A stretch of DNA of 63,993 nucleotides, the filler included, from Gonapodya sp. JEL0774 (lineage: Eukaryota): the NCBI GenBank assembly GCA_027604505.1. It is 3 parts of 3 records of this genome, joined end to end, with 100 filler letters (N's around TTAATTAATTAA, not from the genome) between each part and the next. Parts side by side here need not be neighbours in the genome. Positions count along the whole stretch, not along the records: positions 53,967 to 63,993 come from JADIIX010000396.1; 2 more parts are not named here. One strand, written 5' to 3'. How positions within the stretch are numbered: position 1 is the first letter of the stretch; every line of letters begins with the position of its first letter. The notes under the pieces were generated by a model. That model did not search any database. It was given only the letters and a program-made list of their open reading frames with translations, and had not been told where the DNA came from. Shown piece by piece: positions 1 through 63,993 of this stretch. A program made the position numbers and the translations under genes.

Positions 1-817
1 TGCCCATCCCCGCAACCCCCGTTTCCATCACTCCAGGACACGGATAGTGCCACCTGTTCCGCGGGGTCTCGCAAGCATCCTTCGACGAGAGGCTCGAAAC
101 AAACAGAAAATGCGCATTGCCGAGGTGTGTCGAAGACGCAGAAGTGGAGGCTTCGAGAAGGGTCAGATCGCCCCTCGACAATATTCAGCGCCTGTCTTTA
201 CGCCGCACATTAAGCCGATTTCCCCTGTTGAGGCAATTTCCTCGACTGTTACAGCATTCCACACGACTATCGCTGCTCCAACTGTCAATGTACACCCGAA
301 GCCAGCAACTGCGGAGAAGACTGGAAAGGTGTGTGACCAGAAGGTGGCGGAGAGGCACACTGGAAGTCGCCCAGTGTTCTTGGGAAAGAACCCCAAACTT
401 GTGCGAGTCGCTCAACTCTACCTCTCTTCTCTCAAAACTGTGAGCCTGGCCAAGTTCGAACAGGATTCGAAAATGGAAATCGTCGAAGGAGACTACATTG
501 CTGAAGAAGATTGGTAATTCTTCATGGCGTCAATTTTATGTTTCAAAGGTGAGTTCGTTGGGTGTTACGGTCACTGTGGTATGGGCGGACCAAGAACGTT
601 GCATCGTCTTGTGTTCCTACCCTCGTCCTGGTCTGCCTCTTCTTCGCCGCGTGTGCTCCACAAAAATGGCATTGAATGAGAAGAACCGGCCCACATTTCC
701 CTGAACAAATTACACATCAAAATTGCTACATTTTGGATCCCAATCCGGAGAACCGTCGGCATTCCAGAAAGTAACAAATTAAATCAAGTAAATGGATAAT
801 GTGCATGGGAAACTATG
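1..817 (+). repeat. Left copy of ~820-bp inverted repeat (partner 26150-26989); contains a 156-aa ORF of unknown function (47-517)
   Basis: Base 1 onward (tgcccatccccgcaacccccgtttcc) is the exact reverse complement of the end of scaffold A at 26989. ORFs 47..517(+) and 26464..26943(-) are near-identical. Similarity can be followed to aactatg at ~817. Confidence 0.95.
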
Positions 818-5181: not shown

Positions 5182-5493
5182 GGTTGTGGTTTCGTTGGAC
5201 TGTGGTTCTGAGTACGGTTATGTTTGCAGCTCTTGTCTTACAGTTGACGCAATTATTCGCCACCCCTCGTACCGAGCAATGTAAAATGTGACTCTGGCGT
5301 ATATCACTAGCTCAACTCATGTAACTATGAACATTATGGAACCTTGCATAATTGTTGTGTCAACATACGTGGGCCAAATGGTCGGTCTGCCCTTGAGGCC
5401 GAGTCGGAGAGAGATTTTTCAAGCTTAATTTAGCTCGTGTTTATGCCACGTGAGCGGGGTAGCAGTGAGATATGACAAATCGAGATCGATTAA

Positions 5494-5634
5494 ATCTTAC
5501 CGTGACACTTTGTTGCAACTGTAATTCAAACATGCGACTGCTGTCGAGTAATCTACACAGTCAGCGTGAGTTACATGTGTATAGGGCACGCCCTGGACGA
5601 ATGCTGAAAGATGAGCCTGCCTCATGTCTATCTT
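5494..5634 (+). repeat. ~140-bp direct repeat, copy 1 (partner 7679-7820)
   Basis: Shares atctt-ccgtgaca...gagttacatgtgtat...ccctggacgaatgctgaaaga-gagcctgcctcatgtctatctt with 7679-7820. Confidence 0.92.
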
Positions 5635-5764
5635 CAGTGCCGTGTTCAACCTCTCCTAGTGTATCTAAATTATACCCCGAAAACGCGAAAGTAAACGCCA
5701 AAAGTCGCATATTGCTGGTCTTTGAACTAACGTGATCAATCGACCGTTTGAAGCACCGGTTTCA

Positions 5765-7450: not shown

Positions 7451-7678
7451 AATCTCCCGTTTCTCAGAGGAGATATGGATCCGTATGGAGAACAAAAACA
7501 TGGCAATAAAAGTAATCAGTCAGACGCATTACAGTAATCAGAGCCCCAGTGCATCTGGCGGCACCTGCTTCTGCCTGTTGTCTGTTTCTAATTACAAACG
7601 CCAATCCTCTCCACTCAGAATATTGTGCGCTGGTAGAGCGCAAAACATGGTATACGACACATCGAGATTGATATAATC

Positions 7679-7820
7679 ATCTTGCCGTGACAATTTGTTC
7701 CAACTGCAATTCAAACATGGTGACTACTGTCGAATAATTTATGCACTCAGCTTGAGTTACATGTGTATCAAGCATGCCCTGGACGAATGCTGAAAGACGA
7801 GCCTGCCTCATGTCTATCTT
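7679..7820 (+). repeat. ~140-bp direct repeat, copy 2 (partner 5494-5634)
   Basis: See copy 1. Confidence 0.92.
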
Positions 7821-8728
7821 TAGATGTAATCTGACCGCGTCTATCTCCGCAGAGATCATCGAGCCTGGGAACAAGAACAGACAAGCAAGCGGACGACGAC
7901 GATAAGAGTAAATGGTGGAACAAAAAGAAGTGGGAAATTTGTGCGTATCGCGGTGACATTTTATTTGGCGAAGAAGATAGACGAACAAGAACACCATGAA
8001 GGATGAGCCGGACTGAAATGCTCTGACAGGGCCTCCACAAGGAACTCTGGCACGAGTGGATACCACGCACGCGGAGAATTCGGAGCGACGGAAGTGAGTG
8101 AGAAACGCGGACAGGAAAACGACAGAGCAGGAAAAAGAGCGGAGGAATTTACACCAGAGATTCGAGGGAAAATAAGAGGTGGGTAGAACGCGGGGTGGGG
8201 AAAGGGGAAAAGGGGGCCAGTTGGGGAAAGGTGAATGGGCTCTTGGTTGGGAGGAGGCAAGGGGGCCAGCAGAGAGGATTGGTGGCTGAGAATTCTCGCT
8301 ATTGCGACTCGAGGAGGGAAGAGAGAAGCAGAAAAAAGAAGGGGGTTGGAGTTGGGGAGATGTTGTACACGGGTGTGTCCGAGTTCCAGGTGGAGGAGGG
8401 AAGGTGCAGAGGAGAAGAGCGGGAGTCCTTATTGAAATTCTTAACAGGAAAGAGAGAAGAAGAAAAGAAAGACGGGGAGCCGGAATTCGTGAGACGACAA
8501 GTTGGAGTGAGTGGGTGACGGAAGTTGCCGGTGGGACTGGGAGAATTGGCGGAAGATCAAGAGCGGGACAACAGGGAATGCGCACAGACACGCTGCAGCA
8601 GAGCAGACAGGCGCAGTGACTGCGCACGCTCACTCATCTGCCGGTGTCTCCGCCACCACGCAACACCGACTCTCACACACAACACTCCCACACCCAGGAG
8701 CGCGCCAGTGCACTCCACCCCCCTTGCA

Positions 8729-26149: not shown

Positions 26150-26989
26150 CATAGTTTCTCACGCACATCATCCATTTAATATATTCAATTTGTTGCTCTC
26201 TGGAATGCCGACAGTTCTCCGGATGGAGATCCAAAGAGTAGCAATTTTGATTTGTAATTTGTTCAGAGAAATGTGGGCCCGTTCTTCTCATTCAATGCCA
26301 TTCTTGCGGAGCACACGCGGCAGAGAAGAGGCAGACCAGGACGAGGGTAGGAACACAAGACGATGCAACGTTCTTGGTCCGCCCTTACCACAGTGACCGT
26401 AACACCCAAGGAACTCCACCTTTGAAACATAAAATTGACGCCCTGAAGAATTAACAATCTCCTTCAACAAAGGTCTCCTTCGATGATTTCCATTTTCGAA
26501 TCCTGTTCGAACTTGGCCAGGCTCACAGTTTTGAGAGAAGCGAGGTAGAGTTGAGCGATTCGCGCGAGGCTGGGGTTCTTTCCCAAGAACAGTGGGCGAC
26601 TTCCCGTGTGCCTCTCCGCCACCTTTGTCGGCGTTCCCCCGATCACCTTCTGGTCACACACCTTTCCAATCTTCTCCGCAGTTGCTGGCTTCGGGTGTGC
26701 AATGCCATTTGGAGCAGCGATAGTTGTGTGGAATGCTGTAACAGTCGAGGAAATTGCCTCAACAGGGGAAATCGGCTTAATGCGCGGCATAAAGGCAGGT
26801 ACTGAATATTGTCGAGGGGCGATCTGACCCTTCTCGAAGCCCCCACTTCTGCGTCTTCGACACACCTCGGCAATGCGCATTTTCTGTTTGTTTCGAGCCT
26901 CTCGTCGAAGGCTGCTTGCGAGACCCCGCGGAACAGGTGGCACTATCCGTGTCCTGGAGTGATGGAAACGGGGGTTGCGGGGATGGGCA
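26150..26989 (-). repeat. Right copy of terminal inverted repeat (partner 1-817)
   Basis: Reverse complement of 1-817 with substitutions and an in-frame ~24-bp extra segment (IGGTPTKV). Confidence 0.95.
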
Positions 26990-27089
26990 NNNNNNNNNNN
27001 NNNNNNNNNNNNNNNNNNNNNNNNNNNNNNNNNTTAATTAATTAANNNNNNNNNNNNNNNNNNNNNNNNNNNNNNNNNNNNNNNNNNNN
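26990..27089. other. Artificial scaffold-joining linker N44-TTAATTAATTAA-N44
   Basis: Stop codons in all six frames flanked by equal N runs; 100 bp in total. Confidence 0.97.
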
Positions 27090-53866: not shown

Positions 53867-53966
53867 NNNNNNNNNNNNNNNNNNNNNNNNNNNNNNNNNN
53901 NNNNNNNNNNTTAATTAATTAANNNNNNNNNNNNNNNNNNNNNNNNNNNNNNNNNNNNNNNNNNNN
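53867..53966. other. Artificial scaffold-joining linker N44-TTAATTAATTAA-N44
   Basis: Same structure as 26990-27089. Confidence 0.97.
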
Positions 53967-54636
53967 TCAACGTCTGATTTTGAGCGACACTGCGCAGGGA
54001 TGGGATTGGGAGCAGTTGGATAGTTGGCGTTGATTGGAAACAATACACTGGAGTGTTTTGTTTCAGGGGGAGTGTGAAGTCTTGGATGATACCATTGGTG
54101 ACACAATAATTTGTGTACACTGGATTTGGACTCCGGAGATGATTTGGGGAAGTGGTTGGATGAGTCATCACTGTGGCCTGGTGTGGCACAGCGGGTCAAA
54201 GTACATATAAACAGCCGATTTTCCCATGTAGTGTGTGTTGTGTGAGAAAAGACAAGTTTGGAGTTCCAACACAGATTGACATACAAGCCTTTTCCCACAA
54301 TCTTTACATTCCTGAGAACAACCAAACTTGACACAGATGAGGACGTCCACTGAACTTGACAGGTTATGAGCCCAGAGCACTGAAGAGTGCTCTATCATAG
54401 GGTTATGGCCCGATCTGGCTGCCTTTCGTCGCACGCTCGTCGCACGTCGCACTTCCCTGAGGAGGAGATGGGATCTACTTCCTCTTTTTTTGAGTATAAG
54501 TTGTACAAATATGAATATGATGGTTGCATCCATAGGTTTCACCATTGATGTTGTGTTGAGCGGAACAACGAAGTTCCACTCCCTCCCTCCCAATCTCTCT
54601 CAATCCCACTCAACACACAATCAATTCGGCGCGTTC

Positions 54637-54672
54637 CGTCGCAAAGCGACAAAAACGGGTCGCTTTGCGACG
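54637..54672. repeat. Perfect 14-bp inverted repeat with an 8-bp asymmetric spacer (loxP/FRT-like geometry)
   Basis: CGTCGCAAAGCGAC-AAAAACGG-GTCGCTTTGCGACG. The repeat is certain; its function is inferred. Confidence 0.9.
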
Positions 54673-54899
54673 AAAGAGAAAGCGGATTTTTGGCAGAGGT
54701 TAGTCGCACGCCTTGTCGACGGAAACCAATTTGCTCGTCATCCCACACATCTCCGACCCTCCAGACCACGAATTTCTCGTGATCGCGTCTACGAGCGGCA
54801 CGTTTCGTGTGCAGCGCTGACCCTCCGTCTCCCTCAATCACGTGTTCGCGACGCATCATTTTGCGAGTCTGACAGCTCGCAAATCGCCAGTCTCACCGC

Positions 54900-55720
54900 T
54901 TTCATGGGTATCACGGATTGTGCTTCCCTGCAATAACCTCAAGGCGAGTTCGGGGCTGGGGGGAGAGTGGTGGGTGGACCTGGAGGGGAGTAAGACGGGG
55001 AATCCATCGGGACAAACCGGAGTCCGCGCTGGGTCGGGAGCGGCGATGGGCGCCGAGCTCGGTGTGTGCGAGGCACTGCAAAACTGAGGCAAGTGTTGGT
55101 TGTCAGGGGTACGGACTGCGTGGAAGCCATGGGTTGCAGACCCATTCGGTATACCGACAAGGTGAAGATGCTTGCGGTTGAGCGCACACTCGCCTTTTCG
55201 ACCTCGCAAAGGACCAGAAACAATGAAGTGAAATGCGTAGGCAAGTCTCTTGTGAGGCGAGTGTAGGGGGCTGGAAGTTTCATGGAGGATCCATCATTCT
55301 AACTTCTCGCAATTGTGCTCAGTATTTCGAGGACAGTGGCGCAGGTAGCACGGTGGTGACCCCTGGCATGAGAGATGCAGAAGCAAACAAGCTGTACGGA
55401 TCACAAAACGTGCGGTGCGAAGTCTGGGTGTGGAAGTTTAGTCACCCGGGTTGGAACCGCAACGTTTATCCTGGCGGAAAAGACACAATCCCCCGCGGCC
55501 CCGCCTCCTCAGAATCAGCAATGAGGGTCCTGCTAGCTCCTCCACACCCACCCCACTCTGGCTCCATCTCAAGCGTGACCTGGATGTTGACTCGACTTGT
55601 CCTACCCACCCCGGTTTGTAAATGATACAGCGTAACAGCAGCTCATGGAAAGGAATGGGGACAGGAACGGAAGCTGTGATGGGAGATGGGCCATCAGAAT
55701 TTTCATCTGCGACCTGGACC
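54900..55720 (+). pseudogene. Possible degenerate tyrosine-recombinase relic
   Basis: Fragments in different frames: GEWWVDLEGSKTGNPS (compare TWDATKKTGNPAYS in the intact YR) and TLAFSTSQRTRNNEV (Box-I-like). No clear HxxR found. Confidence 0.3.
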
Positions 55721-56071
55721 ACATTTTGTTACAGATCAGGTGTAATCGGAGAAAACATCATGTAGTTAATGTATACAATTAGCAAAGGGAAACTTATGCA
55801 ATCACTAAAAGGAGAATTTAAGAGTGTTCCGAGCATTCAGCATTCGGCCCCAAAAGCAGCGAAATCAAATATCGCGTCAAAGTCCAAATCCACGTCCGTT
55901 CGTTCAAAAGAGCCCCAGAAGGGTGTCAGATCATTAGTCAATCTCGCAGCACAGTTCCCGTTGTCTTTTAGTGTTGTGTCACATACGGTCCCCTGAGTTC
56001 GTACAACAGATTGTGCTCCCGAAACTTTAAGAAAGAGCGCAGATTAATAAAACGACACTCCGAAGCAAACC

Positions 56072-57354
56072 TTAAGCACCTACCCTGGGAGGAATACAGA
56101 AGCTGATGTTGAGATGGCGAAGGAACCTCTGGGTGCTCAGCTTTGATCGAAATTCGTCAAACTTCCTGTTCGAACGCTGCAAACAACACTCACAGCAAGC
56201 AATTGACGCGAGCATCAAACTCCGTTGCACCGTTTCTTTCCTCCACTTGTATCCCTTCCACGAACCCCTGAGATACTGGTCCACACTTTTGCCGGCTGAG
56301 TCCATCTGTGCGACACGGCGGCTTGCCTCAGTTTTGATCGCTTCAGCTTCTTCTGGTTTCAATCGGGGAAGCCACTTCTTTTTCAGTGATGTCACAAAGT
56401 TCTGAATCCGCTCCATTGGACACGCTCCGGTGCGGAAGTTGACATTCAGTCCGTGTTGGTGGAGGAAGTATTCGATCTCAACATTTGTTGGCCCCACACC
56501 CCGCTTCATTGCGACAATTTCCATGAATATTGCCGCTTCCTTCAGTTGATTTTGCTCACGGGGTTCCGGAACTCTGTAGATGGTGGAGTTTGCCGGGACG
56601 ACTGCGCGGAGCTGCTCAGATGTGAAACCGTAGGTCCATTCTCCGTTTAAATCAACCGCTCTCCAAATTTCACCAAGAGGAGCAATCCGTCCCGTGCATT
56701 GTCCCTTCTGGCGCCGGTGGTATAGAGCTGATTTCGTTCGCTCCCTGAGTGCTGATCGTTCTGACTCCGCCTGAATAGTCGCAAAGTGAATCTGAATGGA
56801 ATTGTCGAATCCATTCTTGGTAAGAGGTCCAAATGAGTAGTCAAATTGAGACGAGATGTAAAGGCCTTTGCCAGCGTCTCCCAGTCGAGTTTTCAAAGCA
56901 AAAAAGACGCCGGCATCCCGAGACACCCTGTTCAGACGGTAAACACCCACGCCAATCAGTTGACCAGTTTTTCCGTCCTCGTCCTGCACCATTTGCCGTC
57001 GTTCACGTCGCCCATTCCGATCCTCCCCGCACACAAGCCTCAAGCAGTCTTCAAGTCCAGAACGGTCCGTTTTCCCATATCCAGGTCGAGAGGCGCCACT
57101 CTTGAGGTCTTGATAGAAGGTTGAATAGACACCAAATCCTTTGACTTTGAGCTCGCGCCGAATATGGTCAAACTAGATGGCATGGGACAGTTCGTCGACC
57201 ACGATTGTGCTCAGTATAGAGCAACTCTCCGGTGGTCAAAGGTGGTCAAAGAGAAAACACTGACCTGAACCTCTATGGACACGTTTTCCTTCTTCTCCTG
57301 TGACATGCGGGCGTACATGACGACGATGGGATGGACAGTGGAGAGGGTGTTCAT
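56072..57354 (-). CDS. Serine recombinase (resolvase/invertase-family catalytic domain plus C-terminal extension), ~396 aa, with a spliceosomal intron at 57173-57264
   Basis: Exon 1 (57265-57354) MNTLSTVHPIVVMYARMSQEKKENVSIEVQ; 92-nt GTCAGT...CTAG intron; exon 2 is in frame with ORF 56072..57043: YQDLKSGASR, DRSGLEDCL, VYRLNRVSRD, QAESERSALRERTKSAL, GQCTGRIAPLG. Confidence 0.85.
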
Positions 57355-57856
57355 GGTTGCGGGTCGTTCGGGAGTCTGCAGAGTTGAAATGGGGGAGCAA
57401 AATGGCCGTCACCGAGCGTGTAGGTCACAAACTGAACGGAGAATGGAAGGAGACCATCAAAGCCCATTCAAATGGCACGTGATGGGTGTCCGTTGCCAGC
57501 GAAACAACTCCTCACCTCTTCCTGCCCAACTTGGATCGAGACCAAAATGGACTGCTACCCGCGTGAGGAATTCCCGGATGAATTTTCGGAGAATGATTTC
57601 CAGCTGCAACCGAGCGGTTGAAGTCGGAAACCGGGATGCCCTGAGACCCTCGCTCTCCATGCGTGACTGTGACACGGGTCAAGACCTGATGAGTGGGCGC
57701 TACACATTGTCTTTCATTGATGATAGAGATACGAATTTGACGGAGGTGGACACGAGTCTCGTTTGTGAGTGATTGGTGTTCGGTTTTGGGTTGGATATGT
57801 GTGTGCTCGAGTGTTCCCCTACTCCCACAGCTTGACCGTGCGAATCCGACTCCAAC

Positions 57857-59582
57857 ATGTCGTCCAAGAGATCCGCGCCCACGACACAAAAGATCGCTAA
57901 GAGCAAGCTAGAGAAACGGAAAGCGGCAGTGCTGGATGTCGACAGCGGCGGGAGTGTTCTGGAAGTGGTGGCGAGGATTCCACAGGATCTTGGAATGGTC
58001 GACTTCCGGCGGCAGCAGCTTGGGGCACAGTTTGGATATGACAATCCGAGTCGGATCCTCCCAATGACTCGTACCCTGGAGATGTTGCCGGGGGCCAAAC
58101 GGGTGCTGCCAGACGTGAACAACAAGGAGTTCAAGGATGGAGGAGGAGCACCATTGACCCGGTTCCCCGAATTGCTCGGCATAGGCGAAAACCAGATGTC
58201 GCTTATCTCCAAGCCGGGAGAGTTCAAGTCTCGGGAAGCTCTGGTAACGCTGGCCGACTCGTTGGAGACGCTTTTGCAGGGATCGAGCAACGTTCTCACG
58301 GATTCGGAGGCTGCTCGCCGAGTTATTCAGGATCTCCGGTACGACAATAGACTCAAATCTAAGCGGAAACAAGTGCTCTTATCAATGTTCTCCTTCTTAG
58401 CACCACCATTTCGAAAGGGAATGCGAGCACCGTCGCCCCGAGTCCCCCCACCGACGTTACATCTTCGCATGGTACCCATTTGCGCAGCTTTCTGGCGGAT
58501 TCTCAACATCTGCTGGCAGGTAGCTCCAATGGCCAGCTGGTAGTTCTTTCCCCTCCTACTCCCTCACCAGCACCTCGCTGGGGTAATGCCTGTTCACAGT
58601 ATGATCAATTGGTGCCTCCGATACAAATCCCAATTGAGAGCACCAGAAGCACTAGGCAATCTATGGGGGCAAGCACTTGGAACCTGACGAGCCCATGGGG
58701 CAGTGGAGACTTTCGAGTGGAAGGTGTCGCAATCTGCATACTCCGATGCCAGTCTCCACACCTTCTCCAACGCGGCATCTGCTTTCTTCTTCTTTTAATC
58801 GACCAGTCGACTCCCTGTGCTTTCACCCCCCGTCGTCACCCACTTCCCTGGGTCGCTATCATAGTCGTGGAAACGATGACGTTGACTTGGGATCTCAACT
58901 TCCACGCAGATTTCTCTCCGATGCACAAATACAGCACGGCCATCAAGCTGCTAATCTGCTTCACTCTATTACTTCACCCGATCACACCACTACCTTTGAT
59001 GTCGTCACACTGGCGGACTCTGTAGTATCTTCCCCACCGGTACCACAGTTGCAAGTCAAACCGGTGGCAACAGCCGGCTCCTCTGTTTCAATTGCGGCTA
59101 GAGCGGCACCTGCATCAGCTGGTGCACCCCGATCAGGGACTGAACTGGCGACACCAAAAATAAAGCTATACGTTCGGAAGGCCGACCTGCGCCGAGGGGA
59201 GCAGTACGCAGGTGCTGGTGGCAAGAGCGACTTTGTAACGTGGAAATGGGACGTCCGGAAACTCCAAGCTCAGTGGGAACGGGGTGAAGGGCTGACGGCA
59301 CCGGGTTTTGTGCTCATGTATCCGCCTCGCGTTCTTCATGCTGCACGTCGGGCCCAAAGGTGCAAGGAGCTGGATATTTGTGCGGCTCATGTTGACTACT
59401 TGAAGGAGTTGAACGTTCAATGCACTTCATGGGTCAAGAATCTGACGAAGTACGGGAAGCTGTACGAGGGTCTGAAACTGTGCGGATTTGATACGCTGAT
59501 CTTCCAAGAGAAATTCGGCTCAAAGTTTAATGAAGCCTTGGAGAAGGTGCAGGAGCATTTGGGCAGAATGAACAATCAGTGA
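57857..59582 (+). CDS. Hypothetical protein (probably spliced), basic N-terminus; C-terminus weakly resembles GCR1_C-like DNA-binding domains
   Basis: ORFs 57857..58543 and 58677..59582 in tandem on the + strand; NLS-like KIAKSKLEKRK; WDVRKLQAQWERGEGL...WVKNLTKYGKLY...FQEKFG. Confidence 0.5.
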
Positions 59583-59806
59583 GGGTTTGGGGCGCTGATT
59601 CCTCCGCAGCATACGCAAGTACGTTACACATACGTACAAACAAACGAACATTCAATAAATTGTGGAATTTGTTATATTACATTCTGAAATGTTTAAAAGT
59701 TAGAATACATTTACAAATGACAACCCTACGGCAAAGACAACAGTTCACAGATGATTGAGTATTGAAGAAGCAAATTTCAAGTTCATAGACCAGACTACCT
59801 CCACCT

Positions 59807-62355
59807 TCAAATTCCGTATCCACGGGTGGTAAGTGCCTGCCGAGCCCTCTTCGCAGCTGTCTCTGGAATGAAAGCCGCTTGACCACCAAAGTCCGGGTCC
59901 ACAGAGTCCCATGAATACACATACGCCGCAGGGTCAAATCCATACATACGAACTGCGGCAGTTCGGAGGTCGCCAGCATCCTTGATGTACAGATAGAAAT
60001 TGGTGGTCCTACAAACCAGCATATAAATGAAGTGACAAAACGAAGGAGATTTTTGGTAACGGGTAGAGGAGGTATTAAGACGGAGAAGCTCAAATAACTC
60101 ACGTACGGTGGCGGCTGAGCTTGTTCATAATATCGGCAGAGGTAAAGTTCGCAACTCCTTCCATTCGAGCCCTCTCAGCCAAGACAATGCCTTGTGGGCA
60201 CAATCGAGTCAAGTTGCAATGGCATGACATCAGGAAACAAAAGAAGGCCAGACACACAAGACGCACCAGTTCGGCGGCAGCTGTGCATCCTAAAATTCAC
60301 ACCTGAAACAGACCCCAAAACCTCATCATCGGGGTCCTCTTCTTCGACATCAGCAGCACCGTCGACAGTCAGATCTTCCTCGGTATCCAGATCATCCGGA
60401 AATTGATTGATTCCTTCATCTGGAGTGTACTCCTCTTCGATTTCCAAGCCACCAACAACATCCTCGTCAGCCATTCCTTCAGAGCCTGCTTCTAGTGACA
60501 CCACCTTGACAGTCCGCCTTGTAAAAGGATCGGGGACACCATTCACCACATTTGCCATTTTGACCATGGCATCTTTGAAAACCTTCTTGCTCGAGTGCTT
60601 CTCGGGGTTGAGTTTGTCAGAGGTAGATGCACGAGTATAGGAAGGGAACACCCAAGGCGAGTTGCAGTTTCGGGTAAGGGCCAGAAACTGTGTAAACTGA
60701 GTGGAGGGGCACAGCTCAGGGAGAACACCAAGGTTGAAGTGAACAATCTTCTCGTAGTCTTGATGAGAGAAAAAGAGACCCGGAGCGGTGAGAAGTTTAC
60801 ATGACTTTCAAATAACGATACTTACATCCAACTTCCGTCTTGTCACTCCCAAATCCAATGATGATATAAGAAGGTATGTCAGTTCCAGGGTACGGAGGAC
60901 CAAAGGTGAGGTTGCTTCGCTTGATGGACATGATTGCGCTTGCTCGACTCGCAGTGAAAATAGACAACAAAATCTGTGTATGAAGCCATTGAGTAACCCA
61001 TGCTGCTGAACAAAAGTGGGGAACCAACTCACAATTGTGTAATACATCGAATGCAGAATCGGACGACCAGCACGTTCCCCTTCGACGCAGTATCCATAAA
61101 ACTGAATGATGTCGTGGATGCCAATGATCGGGGCATGTCGTTCCATGCCGCCATCCGCTTGATATTCCTTTGTTAAGCGAGAAATGAGGCCCTTCGAAGG
61201 ATAATTGAGTGCGAAAGTACGCATCATATGTTAGAGCAGATGAGAATCCAGAGTGAACGGGGAATTCAAACAAGAGCAAACCTTCACTTCTGGAGAGTAC
61301 GCCGGGTTGCCTGTTTTCTTAGCTACGAAAAGAGGAACAGTTTTTGACAAAGTTCCACTTGATCAGTTCCCGCACATCAAAACAAACCAACTCACTAGCA
61401 TCCCACGTCTTCGTACCTCCAAGCATTTCGTACAGCCAGGAAACAGCCCAGCGCTCTTGTTTGGCGATAGAGAGGGACAGCCCACGCGTTGGAATACCAG
61501 CGGGGACGTTTCGGGTATCTGTGACGGCAAACGGCAGAAGAGTTACACAGGATACACAATGAAAGAGTGAGGATTAAGACTGGAGCAACACCTACTTGGC
61601 ACCCCATTTGAGAGCTCGGGTGTATTCGTAGGAATGCCAGTGTGCGCTTCGAGATACTTGCGGGAGCAATTGACCGTCATCGACACCAACATCATTGACT
61701 GTACCTCCCTGTCAAATCCTTCATCACCAATGAGCGGAACCTGAACGCCAATAACACCCCGGAGGGCTTCCATGTTGACGAGTCGGTTGCAGTATCTTGG
61801 AAGGGAGAGACACAGTTGATTGATACGTGTCACCATAATACTGAAACCATCCAAAAGTGACTTACATGTACATAGTAGAGGCCGCCTTTTTGCCTGCGAT
61901 AGATTTTGTGACCGCGTGCTGAAGTAGGGTGTCAAAATCATACAGCGGGGACGAGTCAACACCAGCTGTCGAGCTGGAAGCATGAGTCTTTAGAGCAGTA
62001 CGAAGTCTCATCAACAAGTTTCACATGAAATGTCAACGGCCCGCACGAGCAACGAACTCACTGATCCAAACGATTGTCGCAAACCTCGCTTCAAAGCCAG
62101 AGCTTGTCGAACGAGTACAGAGAGGGCGGGTGGACTCTTTTTCCGAGGTGGGGAAACGAGAGATGGGAGATCGCCAGGCTCAGAGCCAAGAACGATCACA
62201 GGAGCTGTCGCCCGAGCAGGGTGGAGCGGATGCAGTTTCTGGAAAACATCCGTCCCGAGCTCAGCGTAGGTTGATACGAGTCCCCGCGGCACGTGGTTTT
62301 GCAGCCGAGAGACTTCCTCCAATGAGGCGGAGAAATCGTAGCCACGAATCGCCAT
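59807..62355 (-). CDS. Tyrosine recombinase (Crypton-like), ~9 exons, catalytic residues intact
   Basis: Spliced: ...KKTGNPAYSPEVK|GLISRL...MYYTI|ILLSIFTASRASAIMSIKRSNL (R, 60944) ...GSDKT (K, ~60840) ...LCPSTQF...WVFP...FRMHSCRRT|G (HxxR, 60274-60285) ...LSRHRT| (H, 60108) TTNFYLYIKDA (Y, 59987). The introns checked are GT-AG and keep the frame. Confidence 0.85.
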
Positions 62356-62570
62356 GGTGTTGCTTGTCGGCGTTTGCGGTGGAGGGGGCTTGATAGGCGG
62401 AGGCAGCGAGGTAGGAACAGGACGAGCAGAGGAGGGAGCTCGATTTGTCGCAGTTTTACGCATCTGTTGAATTTTCGATGCAATATGTGACGTGCGACGA
62501 ATGCTATTACATACGTGGGGGGATGGGAGGGTGGGGAGTGGCTTTGGTCCTGCCGTGGGACCGTGCAACA

Positions 62571-62618
62571 CTCTCCCTCTCTCCCTCTGTCTCTCTCACA
62601 CCTCTCTCTCTCTCTCTC
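62571..62618 (+). repeat. Imperfect (CT)n microsatellite
   Basis: ctctccctctctccctctgtctctctcacacctctctctctctctctc. Confidence 0.85.
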
Positions 62619-62758
62619 ATCGCACGATCGTCGCACATTCGTCGCATACATACATACTAACAAGGATTTTGGACACTTTTGGACAATCGTGGAATCGCTC
62701 TTCCCCCTCGTATTTCTCCTCTGTCACTGCAACACCATTGAAACAAACGCCTGCCATC

Positions 62759-62945
62759 ATGGCAAACAAATTCACACCCAACGATGTACTGAAATGGGTC
62801 ACTGATACGTTGACCAAAACAAAAAAATTGTCCAAGTATTGTGATTGGGCGTACGAATTTGAAAACACTTTGGAATTGACAGGAAATGTGGAACACATCA
62901 AGGGAGTCTGCCAGGCGGACAATCCTTTCATTGATATTATCTTTA
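62759..62945 (+). pseudogene. Short ORF fragment resembling a Ty1/copia Gag N-terminus, interrupted at ~62945
   Basis: LSKYCDWAYEFENTLELTGNVEHIKG resembles the Y-x2-W...L...HI.G pattern; it is followed abruptly by a purine-rich, repeat-bearing segment. Confidence 0.3.
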
Positions 62946-63218
62946 GAGGGAAAGAGGGGAAAACGTCGAAGGGCAGGGGAAACTTTCCCGGAGAGAGCGC
63001 TTTCCCGTGGTGTGGGCTGCGACCGAGTTTCCCGCTGGTTTCCTGCTGAGAATTACCCAAATGTTACCCAAAATTACCCACCAATCGTGGCTTTTTCGAC
63101 TCAAAAACCTTCAAAGAAACGCCGAAACCCAGTGTTTCAAGCAATCTTCCCATGCCGCCGTCACCTCTCCCCAATCGACGTCACCAGCGGACAAAACGGT
63201 CAAACCGAGTCTCTCCTG

Positions 63219-63993
63219 ATGTTGCTGCGGCGTCGGGGGCACTGGATGCAGCAATGAGCAAAGTGATAGGGAAATCAACTCGAGAACTGACTCGTAAACA
63301 CTATCGCTAGTGAGTTATGGGTTTCAACATTGGTGTACGCGGATGGTGTTCACCACGTTATACTGCAACCAGTGACCAGCTTCGATTCCTGCGCTTTCTC
63401 CTCAAAGACCTTGAAAAGGACTACGGAGAGAATGAAAACCTCTGGTCCCTCACTGCGGAAAGGGTGCTGGATAATCCATCAACACTCGCTGAATTCATCG
63501 ATTCCAAAATGCCAAATCACGTTGTGGCCTTCTTGATCTACCTTTGCGACCCAAATTTAGGAGGATGTATGGTGGGTTTCTCCTGAGAAGGTCGAACATT
63601 TTGCATGTTGATCCCAATTCACCACTCGTCAACAGCCTCCCTCTGCCCTCTCAGCAGAGTCTGCAATATCAAAACCGCTAACAAACGTTGGCGGCCGCTT
63701 CTGCGGTGACTGGTGTGATGAGGGCGATGGGAAAGTGGGAGGTAATGCGACATATAGCTCTGTGGTTCGTGAATGTGCGAAGGTGAGCACACTCCTGGAA
63801 ACTTTGCTCTTTGTCCACCCGTGGCTTACTTAGTATATTAAATTGAAAGGGAATTCAGGTCGCTGCGTCTGAGAAGGATTGTGAAGTTCCTATGGTGTTG
63901 GACATAATGCCATAAGTATTTGTATATGGCGCAGACTTGGTCTATGGGACATTTGGGAGTCTTGGTGAAATGGGGTGTGTTTCGTAATCATGA
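63219..63993 (+). pseudogene. Probable second, degenerate tyrosine-recombinase N-terminal region, cut by the window end
   Basis: TRELTRKHYR|...FLRFL; NIKTANKRW; GDWCDEGDGKVGGNATYSSVVRECAK|GIQ, which parallels W...GNPAYSPEVK|GLI; in-frame stops and a frameshift are present. Confidence 0.4.

What the first reader, a model, noticed from the sequence alone, without database searches (positions are those of the whole stretch)
54637..54672. loxP/FRT-like site: 14-bp perfect arms around an 8-bp asymmetric spacer
Seen: CGTCGCAAAGCGAC-AAAAACGG-GTCGCTTTGCGACG. Each arm is itself a mini-hairpin (GTCGC-AAA/TTT-GCGAC), so branched or cruciform folds are possible. Known: Cre and Flp sites are 13-bp inverted arms around an 8-bp directional spacer. 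Inference: a candidate crossover site or element terminus for the neighbouring tyrosine recombinase. No second full copy was seen in this window.
Basis: partly seen in the sequence, partly recalled or inferred. Interest (0 to 1): 0.72.

Follow-up and report, generated by a model that had tools for sequence, protein, structure and literature searches.

The report
Recombinase-site palindrome inside fungal transposon
A real 36-base palindrome lies in fungal DNA beside two intact, intron-containing DNA-recombining genes, likely just inside the end of a jumping element that carries both, and it is more likely a docking site for that element's own enzyme than the point where the element is cut out.

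Summary
The palindrome is real: the only perfect inverted repeat of 11 bp or more in the window, with 0.006 expected. It lies on a separate 10,027-bp contig whose proteins NCBI names as Gonapodya sp. JEL0774. The contig encodes an intact 10-exon tyrosine-recombinase-like gene (motif order only, no Pfam hit), 5.1 kb from the site, and a spliced serine recombinase (Pfam Resolvase), 1.4 kb away. These genes fill an ~8.2-kb block that appears to interrupt a Copia retrotransposon just after its primer-binding site. Both block edges carry clusters of TCGTCGCA, mostly 11 bp apart, and the palindrome's arms share this motif. The site sits ~190 bp inside the left cluster, has no second copy or spacer match, and its arms are themselves palindromes. 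Best reading (0.4): a binding site for the element's recombinase. An internal loxP/res-type crossover site (0.25) is not excluded; a terminus is not supported. No genome, reads or homologues were available, so the ends and the mechanism are inferred. The scan noted a similar element-specific palindrome in a different fungal YR element (e1-7567759, unchecked).

The parts
54637..54672 (.). The palindrome: two 13-bp self-palindromic units GTCGC-WWW-GCGAC at 21-bp period, forming 14-bp perfect arms around AAAAACGG
54423..54451 (+). Left motif cluster (GTCGCA at 54428, 54439, 54446); 54423-54433 is an 11-bp inverted match to 54666-54676 of the palindrome; inferred left end region of the element
62617..62646 (+). 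Right motif cluster ([GA]TCGCA at 62619, 62630, 62641; 11-bp period); shares TCGTCGCAC (9 bp) and a 19-nt repeat family with the left cluster; inferred right end region
   Evidence: (D4, D7)
62489..62503 (-). Inner inverted motif copy: 11 bp identical to 62636-62646 and 12 bp identical to 54437-54448; lies in a likely 5' intron (GTATGT..CAG, 62514-62464) just before an in-frame ATG of the YR gene
   Evidence: intron inferred
56072..57354 (-). Serine recombinase gene (P0001, HDU93_006587): exon 57354-57265, GT-AG intron of 92 nt, exon 57172-56072; catalytic domain first (YARMS, NRVSR), ~180-aa unassigned C-terminus
   Evidence: Pfam Resolvase E 8.5e-14; PHROG 95/125; hhalign to 9 bacterial large serine recombinases, residues 6-197, prob 75%; intron
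57857..59582 (+). Gene of unknown function (two long ORFs; by locus numbering probably HDU93_006588, spliced product not retrieved)
   Evidence: no Pfam or NCBIfam hit for either ORF; one weak PHROG of unknown function, E 0.011
59807..62355 (-). Tyrosine-recombinase-like gene (P0004, HDU93_006589, 622 aa, 10 exons, 9 of 9 introns GT-AG): TASR(R323), HSCRR(521-525), H554, Y563; frame open upstream to ATG 62463
   Evidence: PHROG 216 integrase E 0.28; no Pfam hit
53967..54023 (+). Last 18 codons of an ORF that resemble the end of a Copia RNase H (resemblance recalled, too short to scan); the contig begins here
54065..54361 (+). Polypurine tract AGGGGGAG (54065-54072) and inferred Copia LTR (54073-54361, TG...CA, TATA-like box at ~54205)
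   Evidence: the layout is recalled knowledge
54362..54375 (+). Primer-binding site; the first 12 bases equal the 3' end of a published antisense probe for yeast initiator tRNA-Met (anticodon arm), the Ty5/copia half-tRNA type
   Evidence: priming type
54544..54625 (.). Second, imperfect inverted repeat (20-bp arms, 85%) around a CT-rich loop, directly left of the palindrome
   Evidence: (I21)
62759..62941 (+). Short ORF start resembling a Copia gag N-terminus (recalled pattern only); inferred continuation of the interrupted retrotransposon
   Evidence: no Pfam or PDB support
62942..63993 (+). Probable second nested element: GGGAAA/TTTCCC and TTACCC motif clusters (62948-63079), then a spliced ORF (P0002, 63152-63782) resembling a YR N-terminal domain; runs off the contig
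   Evidence: identity weak (7.0 bits, E 0.059)
53867..53966 (.). N44-TTAATTAATTAA-N44 linker between unrelated contigs; the CDC27-like gene to the left is not shown to be adjacent
   Evidence: contig length 10,027 equals longest_contig

Best explanation
The palindrome is likely a docking site for a recombinase of the ~8.2-kb mobile element that likely surrounds it, and strand exchange would happen at the element's ends rather than in its spacer. Shown: the site, the motif clusters at 54423-54451 and 62617-62646, an intact spliced YR-like gene, an intact spliced serine recombinase gene, and Copia LTR/primer-site landmarks to the left. Inferred: the block between the clusters is a Crypton-like element inserted in the Copia leader. 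Its protein, most likely the YR whose 5' region also carries the motif, binds GTCGC half-sites arrayed on one face of the helix (11-bp period at the ends, 21-bp period in the palindrome). These sites would help pair the two ends, which would then be recombined at a short direct repeat (TCGTCGCAC or nearby) to release a circle that reinserts elsewhere.
For: The arm motif is element-associated. TCGTCGCA occurs 6 times on the 10-kb contig and once in the other 53.9 kb. All 6 fall in two zones 8 kb apart; such a two-cluster pattern arose in 3 of 300 Markov simulations. The outer arm matches the left cluster over 11 bp in inverted orientation, and a mirror-like 11-bp inverted pair sits at the right edge. 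Between the clusters lie the recombinase genes; outside on the left lie a Copia primer site and LTR. The YR motifs are in the right order (10 of 20,000 shuffles) and 9 of 9 introns are GT-AG. The far edge has no arm or spacer copy. Joining the ends at the 9-bp repeat gives no loxP-like repeat: 8/13 for the circle and 7/13 for the empty site, against 7 or 8 in 233 of 300 random windows. Precedent for helically phased motifs plus an inverted repeat near but not at the ends: IS607 family (PMC6188088 passages).
Against: No second copy of the element, empty site, read set or homologue was found, so the ends are inferred from one sequence. The motif's raw count is not significant alone: some 8-mer reached 6 or more copies in 81 of 300 simulations, and the motif was picked after looking. 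YR identity rests on a post-hoc pattern that matched only 10 of 21 bacterial YRs. Pfam found nothing, PHROG E was 0.28, and a bacterial YR profile scored P0004 at 2.1 bits, below 2 of 300 shuffles. The gag reading on the right has no database support. Most motif copies are on the plus strand, which also fits a Copia RNA leader feature. The 14+8 geometry fits a crossover site well.
Confidence: 0.4

Rival explanations
1. It is a single-copy internal crossover site, used like loxP in phage P1 or res in Tn3 to resolve dimers or cointegrates of the element. One recombinase would act at the ends and the other at this site.
For: Arms and spacer fit YR core sites. One site per element is what a resolution site looks like (recalled: loxP, dif, res), so the lack of a second copy is no argument against it. 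The element carries two recombinases, one with a catalytic-first resolvase domain. Tec elements are thought to use a YR to resolve intermediates (PMC3212892 passage).
Against: The arms are internal palindromes, unlike Cre/Flp arms as recalled. The same motif is used in direct arrays at both edges, where no spacer exists. The site is downstream of the serine recombinase, 2.7 kb from its start, whereas res usually lies next to the resolvase promoter (recalled).
Confidence: 0.25
2. It belongs to the Copia RNA leader, as a dimerisation or packaging hairpin 262 nt downstream of the primer site. The recombinase block would then start further right.
For: A primer site and LTR lie just upstream. The strand folds well (z -4.34, 0 of 200 shuffles for 54530-54720 with DNA parameters). 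Most motif copies are on the plus strand. Self-complementary leader motifs mediate LTR-element RNA dimerisation (recalled).
Against: A minus-strand motif copy lies in the YR gene's 5' region (62489-62503). The combined leader would be long and would hold two motif clusters. No gag follows the palindrome (ORFs).
Confidence: 0.15
3. It is a host transcription-factor site or a functionless hairpin perfected by template switching.
For: A CT-rich, promoter-like stretch lies just left of it (54576-54612). Chance perfect 14-bp repeats occur in about 1 of 180 such windows. No conservation could be shown.
Against: The motif is nearly absent from 53.9 kb of host-gene contigs (1 copy) and clusters at the two edges of the recombinase block.
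Confidence: 0.15
4. It is the element's left terminus or attachment site, with exchange in the 8-bp spacer.
For: The geometry fits. It lies near the inferred left edge. The right cluster shares the outer part of the arm (TTCGTCGCA).
Against: There is no matching spacer or second arm anywhere else on the contig. A motif cluster lies 190 bp further out. Cryptons end in 4-6-bp direct repeats without terminal inverted repeats.
Confidence: 0.05

Closest known systems
Crypton DNA transposons (CryptonF/S/A; PMC3212892, PMC13465315, passages read)
   Same: Intron-containing fungal YR gene with R-H-R-(H)-Y order; no long terminal inverted repeats; a short direct repeat links the inferred ends; a circular intermediate is the proposed route.
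   Different: No GCR1_C or DUF3504 Pfam hit and no sequence relative found. It carries a serine recombinase and an unknown gene. Phased motif arrays and an internal 14+8+14 palindrome were not described in the passages read.
loxP (Cre) and FRT (Flp) sites
   Same: Perfect inverted arms around an 8-bp asymmetric spacer, with a YR-like gene on the same element.
   Different: The arms are 14 bp, GC-rich and internally palindromic; the motif is reused in end arrays; no partner site and no activity shown. The Cre/Flp details are recalled.
IS607-family ends and serine transposases (PMC6188088; eukaryotic copies in yeast, PMC2715888; passages read)
   Same: Short direct motifs in helical phase near both ends, an inverted repeat near but not at an end, and a serine recombinase in a eukaryote.
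   Different: This enzyme has its catalytic domain first (residues ~11-197), not the DNA-binding domain first. It has an intron, no TnpB/Fanzor partner was detected, and a YR lies beside it.
Starships (10.64898/2026.09.21.753150, passages read)
   Same: Fungal YR element with the YR as first gene pointing inwards (if the ends are as inferred) and cargo genes; circle intermediate as the model.
   Different: About 8 kb, no DUF3435 hit, and a non-Pezizomycotina host.
Ty5/copia-type LTR retrotransposon (host element of the insertion)
   Same: Polypurine tract, TG...CA LTR and a primer site matching the initiator tRNA anticodon arm.
   Different: Only fragments are on the contig; gag is unconfirmed.

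Membership tests
loxP/FRT-type YR crossover site | Inverted arms of about 11-13 bp around a 6-8-bp asymmetric spacer | tested here: met
   14+8+14; definition from PMC3212892 passage
loxP/FRT-type YR crossover site | A partner site with the same spacer | tested here: inconclusive
   None in the window; whole genome not held
loxP/FRT-type YR crossover site | Cognate YR binds the arms and cleaves at the spacer edges | not testable with these tools
   Needs biochemistry
Crypton | YR with catalytic R-H-R-Y residues | tested here: met
   R323, H521, R524, H554, Y563 in order; 10 of 20,000 shuffles. Profile support is weak.
Crypton | 4-6-bp direct repeats at the termini, no terminal inverted repeats | tested here: inconclusive
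   Ends not fixed; a 9-bp direct repeat and a 12-bp inverted match are both candidates
Crypton | Dispersed copies and empty sites | not testable with these tools
   No genome
CryptonF | C-terminal GCR1_C domain | tested here: not met
   0 Pfam families for P0004 at E up to 10; only 59 residues follow Y563
Starship | DUF3435 captain | tested here: not met
   0 Pfam families for P0004
IS607 family | DNA-binding domain N-terminal to the serine catalytic domain | tested here: not met
   The catalytic motif starts at residue 13
IS607 family | Short phased direct motifs near the ends and a nearby inverted repeat | tested here: met
   definition; depends on the inferred ends
IS607 family | TnpB/Fanzor second ORF | tested here: inconclusive
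   No Pfam hit in the ORFs scanned; the spliced middle gene was not scanned whole
Large serine recombinase | Catalytic domain followed by Recombinase (PF07508) and zinc-ribbon domains | tested here: inconclusive
   Alignment stops at residue 197; no PF07508 hit; the three best Atlas look-alike clusters (0.94-0.95) carry PF07508 in 68-78% of members
Copia (Ty5-type priming) | Primer site complementary to the initiator tRNA anticodon arm directly after an LTR ending in CA | tested here: met
   12 of 12 bases match the tRNAi probe end
Copia (Ty5-type priming) | gag-pol downstream of the primer site | tested here: inconclusive
   Gag-like start at 62759 by recalled pattern only

The most novel reading that the evidence does not exclude
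An undescribed class of eukaryotic dual-recombinase transposon. An intron-rich tyrosine recombinase excises and integrates the element, and a domesticated, spliced, catalytic-first serine recombinase resolves circle dimers or cointegrates at this internal palindrome (or the roles are reversed). It would be a native fungal counterpart of bacterial integrase-plus-resolvase elements, with its target site already visible.
Probability: 0.15. Interest if true: 0.8.

Novelty: new variant of a known kind. Interest (0 to 1): 0.45.

Why it matters
DNA sites for eukaryotic YR transposons are poorly defined; Crypton boundaries are described as hard to characterise. Here a candidate site, end motifs and two intact recombinase genes sit on one 8-kb piece, so binding and crossover can be tested directly. 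The eukaryotic serine recombinases in the passages read are IS607-type with the DNA-binding domain first. A spliced, catalytic-first enzyme beside a YR in an early-diverging fungus was not found in searches, which cover only the open library; I read listings and selected passages, no supplements. A eukaryote-adapted recombinase/site pair could also be a genome-engineering lead. The palindrome alone, without copies or assays, is a modest finding.

Tried and rejected
Whole genome: none held. Sequencing runs: none was listed, so no reads were laid. Site searches: 0 matches in viral contigs; 0 for the exact arms in metagenome contigs; 12 loci in prokaryote genomes for the relaxed pattern. By their flanks these 12 look like unrelated tandem repeats or hairpins, none with this spacer; their genes were not annotated. 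Homologue searches returned only the contig's own proteins. One search returned P0002 itself and a repetitive Flavivirga protein judged spurious. No related loci and no P0001 match in 5 bacterial genomes. tblastn gave 6 weak plasmid records for P0001, 5 annotated as resolvase or recombinase family; for P0004, 6 chance-level plasmid hits (E 6-10) and no phage hit. Single-sequence AlphaFold models were too poor to use (pLDDT 45 and 32). Fold searches with the P0002 model gave nothing clear (best Z 4.0; 0 with E<=0.001); the P0004 model was not searched. PDB sequence searches were empty or chance-level. P0002 vs P0004 was not significant. Rfam: nothing near a gathering score. The Atlas gave no usable lead for the P0002 exon. 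Nine single-exon ORFs near or in the block are not in the protein collection (9 of 9). Rejected readings: CDC27 promoter element (different contig); P0002 as the neighbouring YR (my early assumption; P0004 is the nearer and complete one); branched hairpins as the main fold; Helitron 3' hairpin, rolling-circle origin and protelomerase site (rejected by eye against recalled features); bacterial terminator (1 hit vs 0.5 expected, and the host is a eukaryote); giant-virus insert (no hallmark gene seen, and PMC13533422's main text does not mention the genus). The Ty5 priming paper PMC1369817 is not held.

Full report
Observation. The sequence at 54637-54672 is as described. It is the only perfect inverted repeat with arms of 11 bp or more and a spacer up to 30 in the window; 0.0056 are expected at 14 bp. 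The arms extend to 17 bp at 94%. Each arm is a 13-bp palindrome, and the two units lie 21 bp apart. The long hairpin is favoured over two small ones by about 9.5 kcal/mol. There is no second copy in the window: the best other match is 22 of 36, and the spacer is unique on the contig.

Setting. The window is a join of several contigs with N-TTAATTAATTAA-N linkers. The finding lies on the last one, 53967-63993, which is 10,027 bp. That equals the contig length given for three proteins that the source names as Gonapodya sp. JEL0774 HDU93_006587, 006589 and 006590. The CDC27-like gene to the left is therefore not a proven neighbour. No whole genome was held.

Genes. P0001 is a serine recombinase: Pfam Resolvase E 8.5e-14, PHROG integrase and invertase families. 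Its catalytic domain comes first and aligns with a profile of 9 bacterial large serine recombinases over residues 6-197 (prob 75%). It has a 92-nt GT-AG intron, and its last ~180 residues are unassigned. P0004 (622 aa, minus strand, 62355-59807) has 10 exons and 9 of 9 GT-AG introns. It carries TASR, HSCRR, H554 and Y563 in YR order; a pattern written after seeing the protein matched 10 of 20,000 shuffles, but only 10 of 21 bacterial YRs. Profile support is weak. Pfam gave no hit and PHROG integrase gave E 0.28. A profile of 21 of 38 candidate bacterial ORFs placed its TGxR box on TASR but scored 2.1 bits, below 2 of 300 shuffles. I take P0004 as a likely YR of a divergent family. A gene of unknown function lies between the two. 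P0002, at the contig's right end, looks like the N-terminus of a second YR-like gene, on weak evidence, behind its own motif clusters.

Nesting. The contig opens with 18 codons resembling a Copia RNase H end (recalled), then a polypurine tract, a 289-bp TG...CA segment and GGTTATGAGCCC. Those 12 bases equal the end of a published probe for yeast initiator tRNA (PMC11230868 passages). Priming from this anticodon arm is known for Ty5, Drosophila copia and fungal Copia families (PMC10886601 and bioRxiv 2025.04.25.647736 passages). No gag follows. A gag-like start appears only at 62759, by recalled pattern and without database support. The simplest reading is an insertion of about 8.2 kb in the Copia leader, with a second insertion further right. 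This is inference from one sequence.

The motif. TCGTCGCA occurs 6 times on the contig and once in the other 53.9 kb. The count alone is unremarkable, since some 8-mer reached 6 or more in 81 of 300 simulations, but two distant clusters appeared in only 3 of 300. Related hexamers stand at 54428/54439/54446 and 62619/62630/62641. The palindrome's outer arm matches the left cluster over 11 bp in inverted orientation. A similar 11-bp inverted pair links the right cluster to 62493-62503, in the YR gene's 5' region. The clusters share a 9-bp direct repeat 8,191 bp apart. The palindrome starts 186 bp inside the left cluster. Joining the ends at the 9-bp repeat gave no loxP-like repeat above background; other crossover points were not scanned.

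Mechanism. Best reading (0.4): the site is bound by an element-coded recombinase, probably the YR, as part of a set of helically phased half-sites that bring the ends together. Exchange would occur at the ends and give a circle, as proposed for Cryptons and reported for Starships. Main rival (0.25): an internal single-copy crossover site for resolving dimers, which would explain the second recombinase and the 14+8 geometry. A Copia RNA hairpin (0.15), a host or neutral feature (0.15) and a true terminus (0.05) make up the rest. An earlier scan note (e1-7567759) describes an element-specific palindrome in another fungal YR element; it is unchecked and is not counted as support.

Comparison and novelty. 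The element works most like a Crypton, but failed the CryptonF and Starship domain tests, and its ends are not fixed. The end layout resembles IS607, but the serine recombinase has the opposite domain order to IS607 enzymes, including those reported in yeast. Searches listed no paper that, by title, abstract start or the passages read, describes a fungal element with both enzymes. I saw passages only, never whole texts or supplements; supplementary Crypton lists (PMC3212892) could bear on this.

Verdict. Novelty is a new variant of a known kind, and interest is 0.45. The element is more interesting than the palindrome, and everything mechanistic awaits other copies or an assay.

Noticed in passing
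window 56072-57354 (-): A catalytic-first serine recombinase with a spliceosomal intron in a fungus; no relative in 5.8 billion proteins. Atlas look-alikes are mostly phage clusters, one from giant viruses.
   Followed up: partly
window 62942-63993 (+): Likely end of a second YR-type element with its own motif clusters (GGGAAA/TTTCCC, TTACCC x3). The frame after the last called exon has stop codons, so it may be decayed or differently spliced.
   Followed up: partly
window 53967-54411 (+): Copia pol end, polypurine tract, LTR and then a primer site: a tandem arrangement sharing one LTR. A 7-bp hairpin and a second primer-site-like sequence follow at ~54374-54411.
   Followed up: partly
window 60310-60500 (-), P0004 residues ~450-515: A long acidic insertion just before the HSCRR motif of the YR-like protein.
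   Followed up: no
window 1-817 and 26150-26989: The first contig begins and ends with inverted copies of an ~840-bp repeat at 90.9% identity.
   Followed up: no
window 5470-5637 and 7652-7823: Direct repeat of ~170 bp at 85% identity, 2.2 kb apart; possibly LTR-like, not examined.
   Followed up: no
window 26990-27089 and 53867-53966: Artificial contig linkers (N44-TTAATTAATTAA-N44); neighbourhood across them is not real evidence.
   Followed up: yes
window 2647-53676: Ordinary host genes: CDC27-like (Pfam ANAPC3/TPR) and, by recalled motifs only, ribophorin II, SPT23/MGA2-like, ATG9, D-amino-acid oxidase, IML1, SMC4 and a DEAD-box helicase.
   Followed up: no
L003:2975-3065: A Limnoglobus record holds a tandem array of GTCGC-WWW-GCGAC-like units at ~21-bp period: the same spacing as here, probably unrelated.
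   Followed up: no
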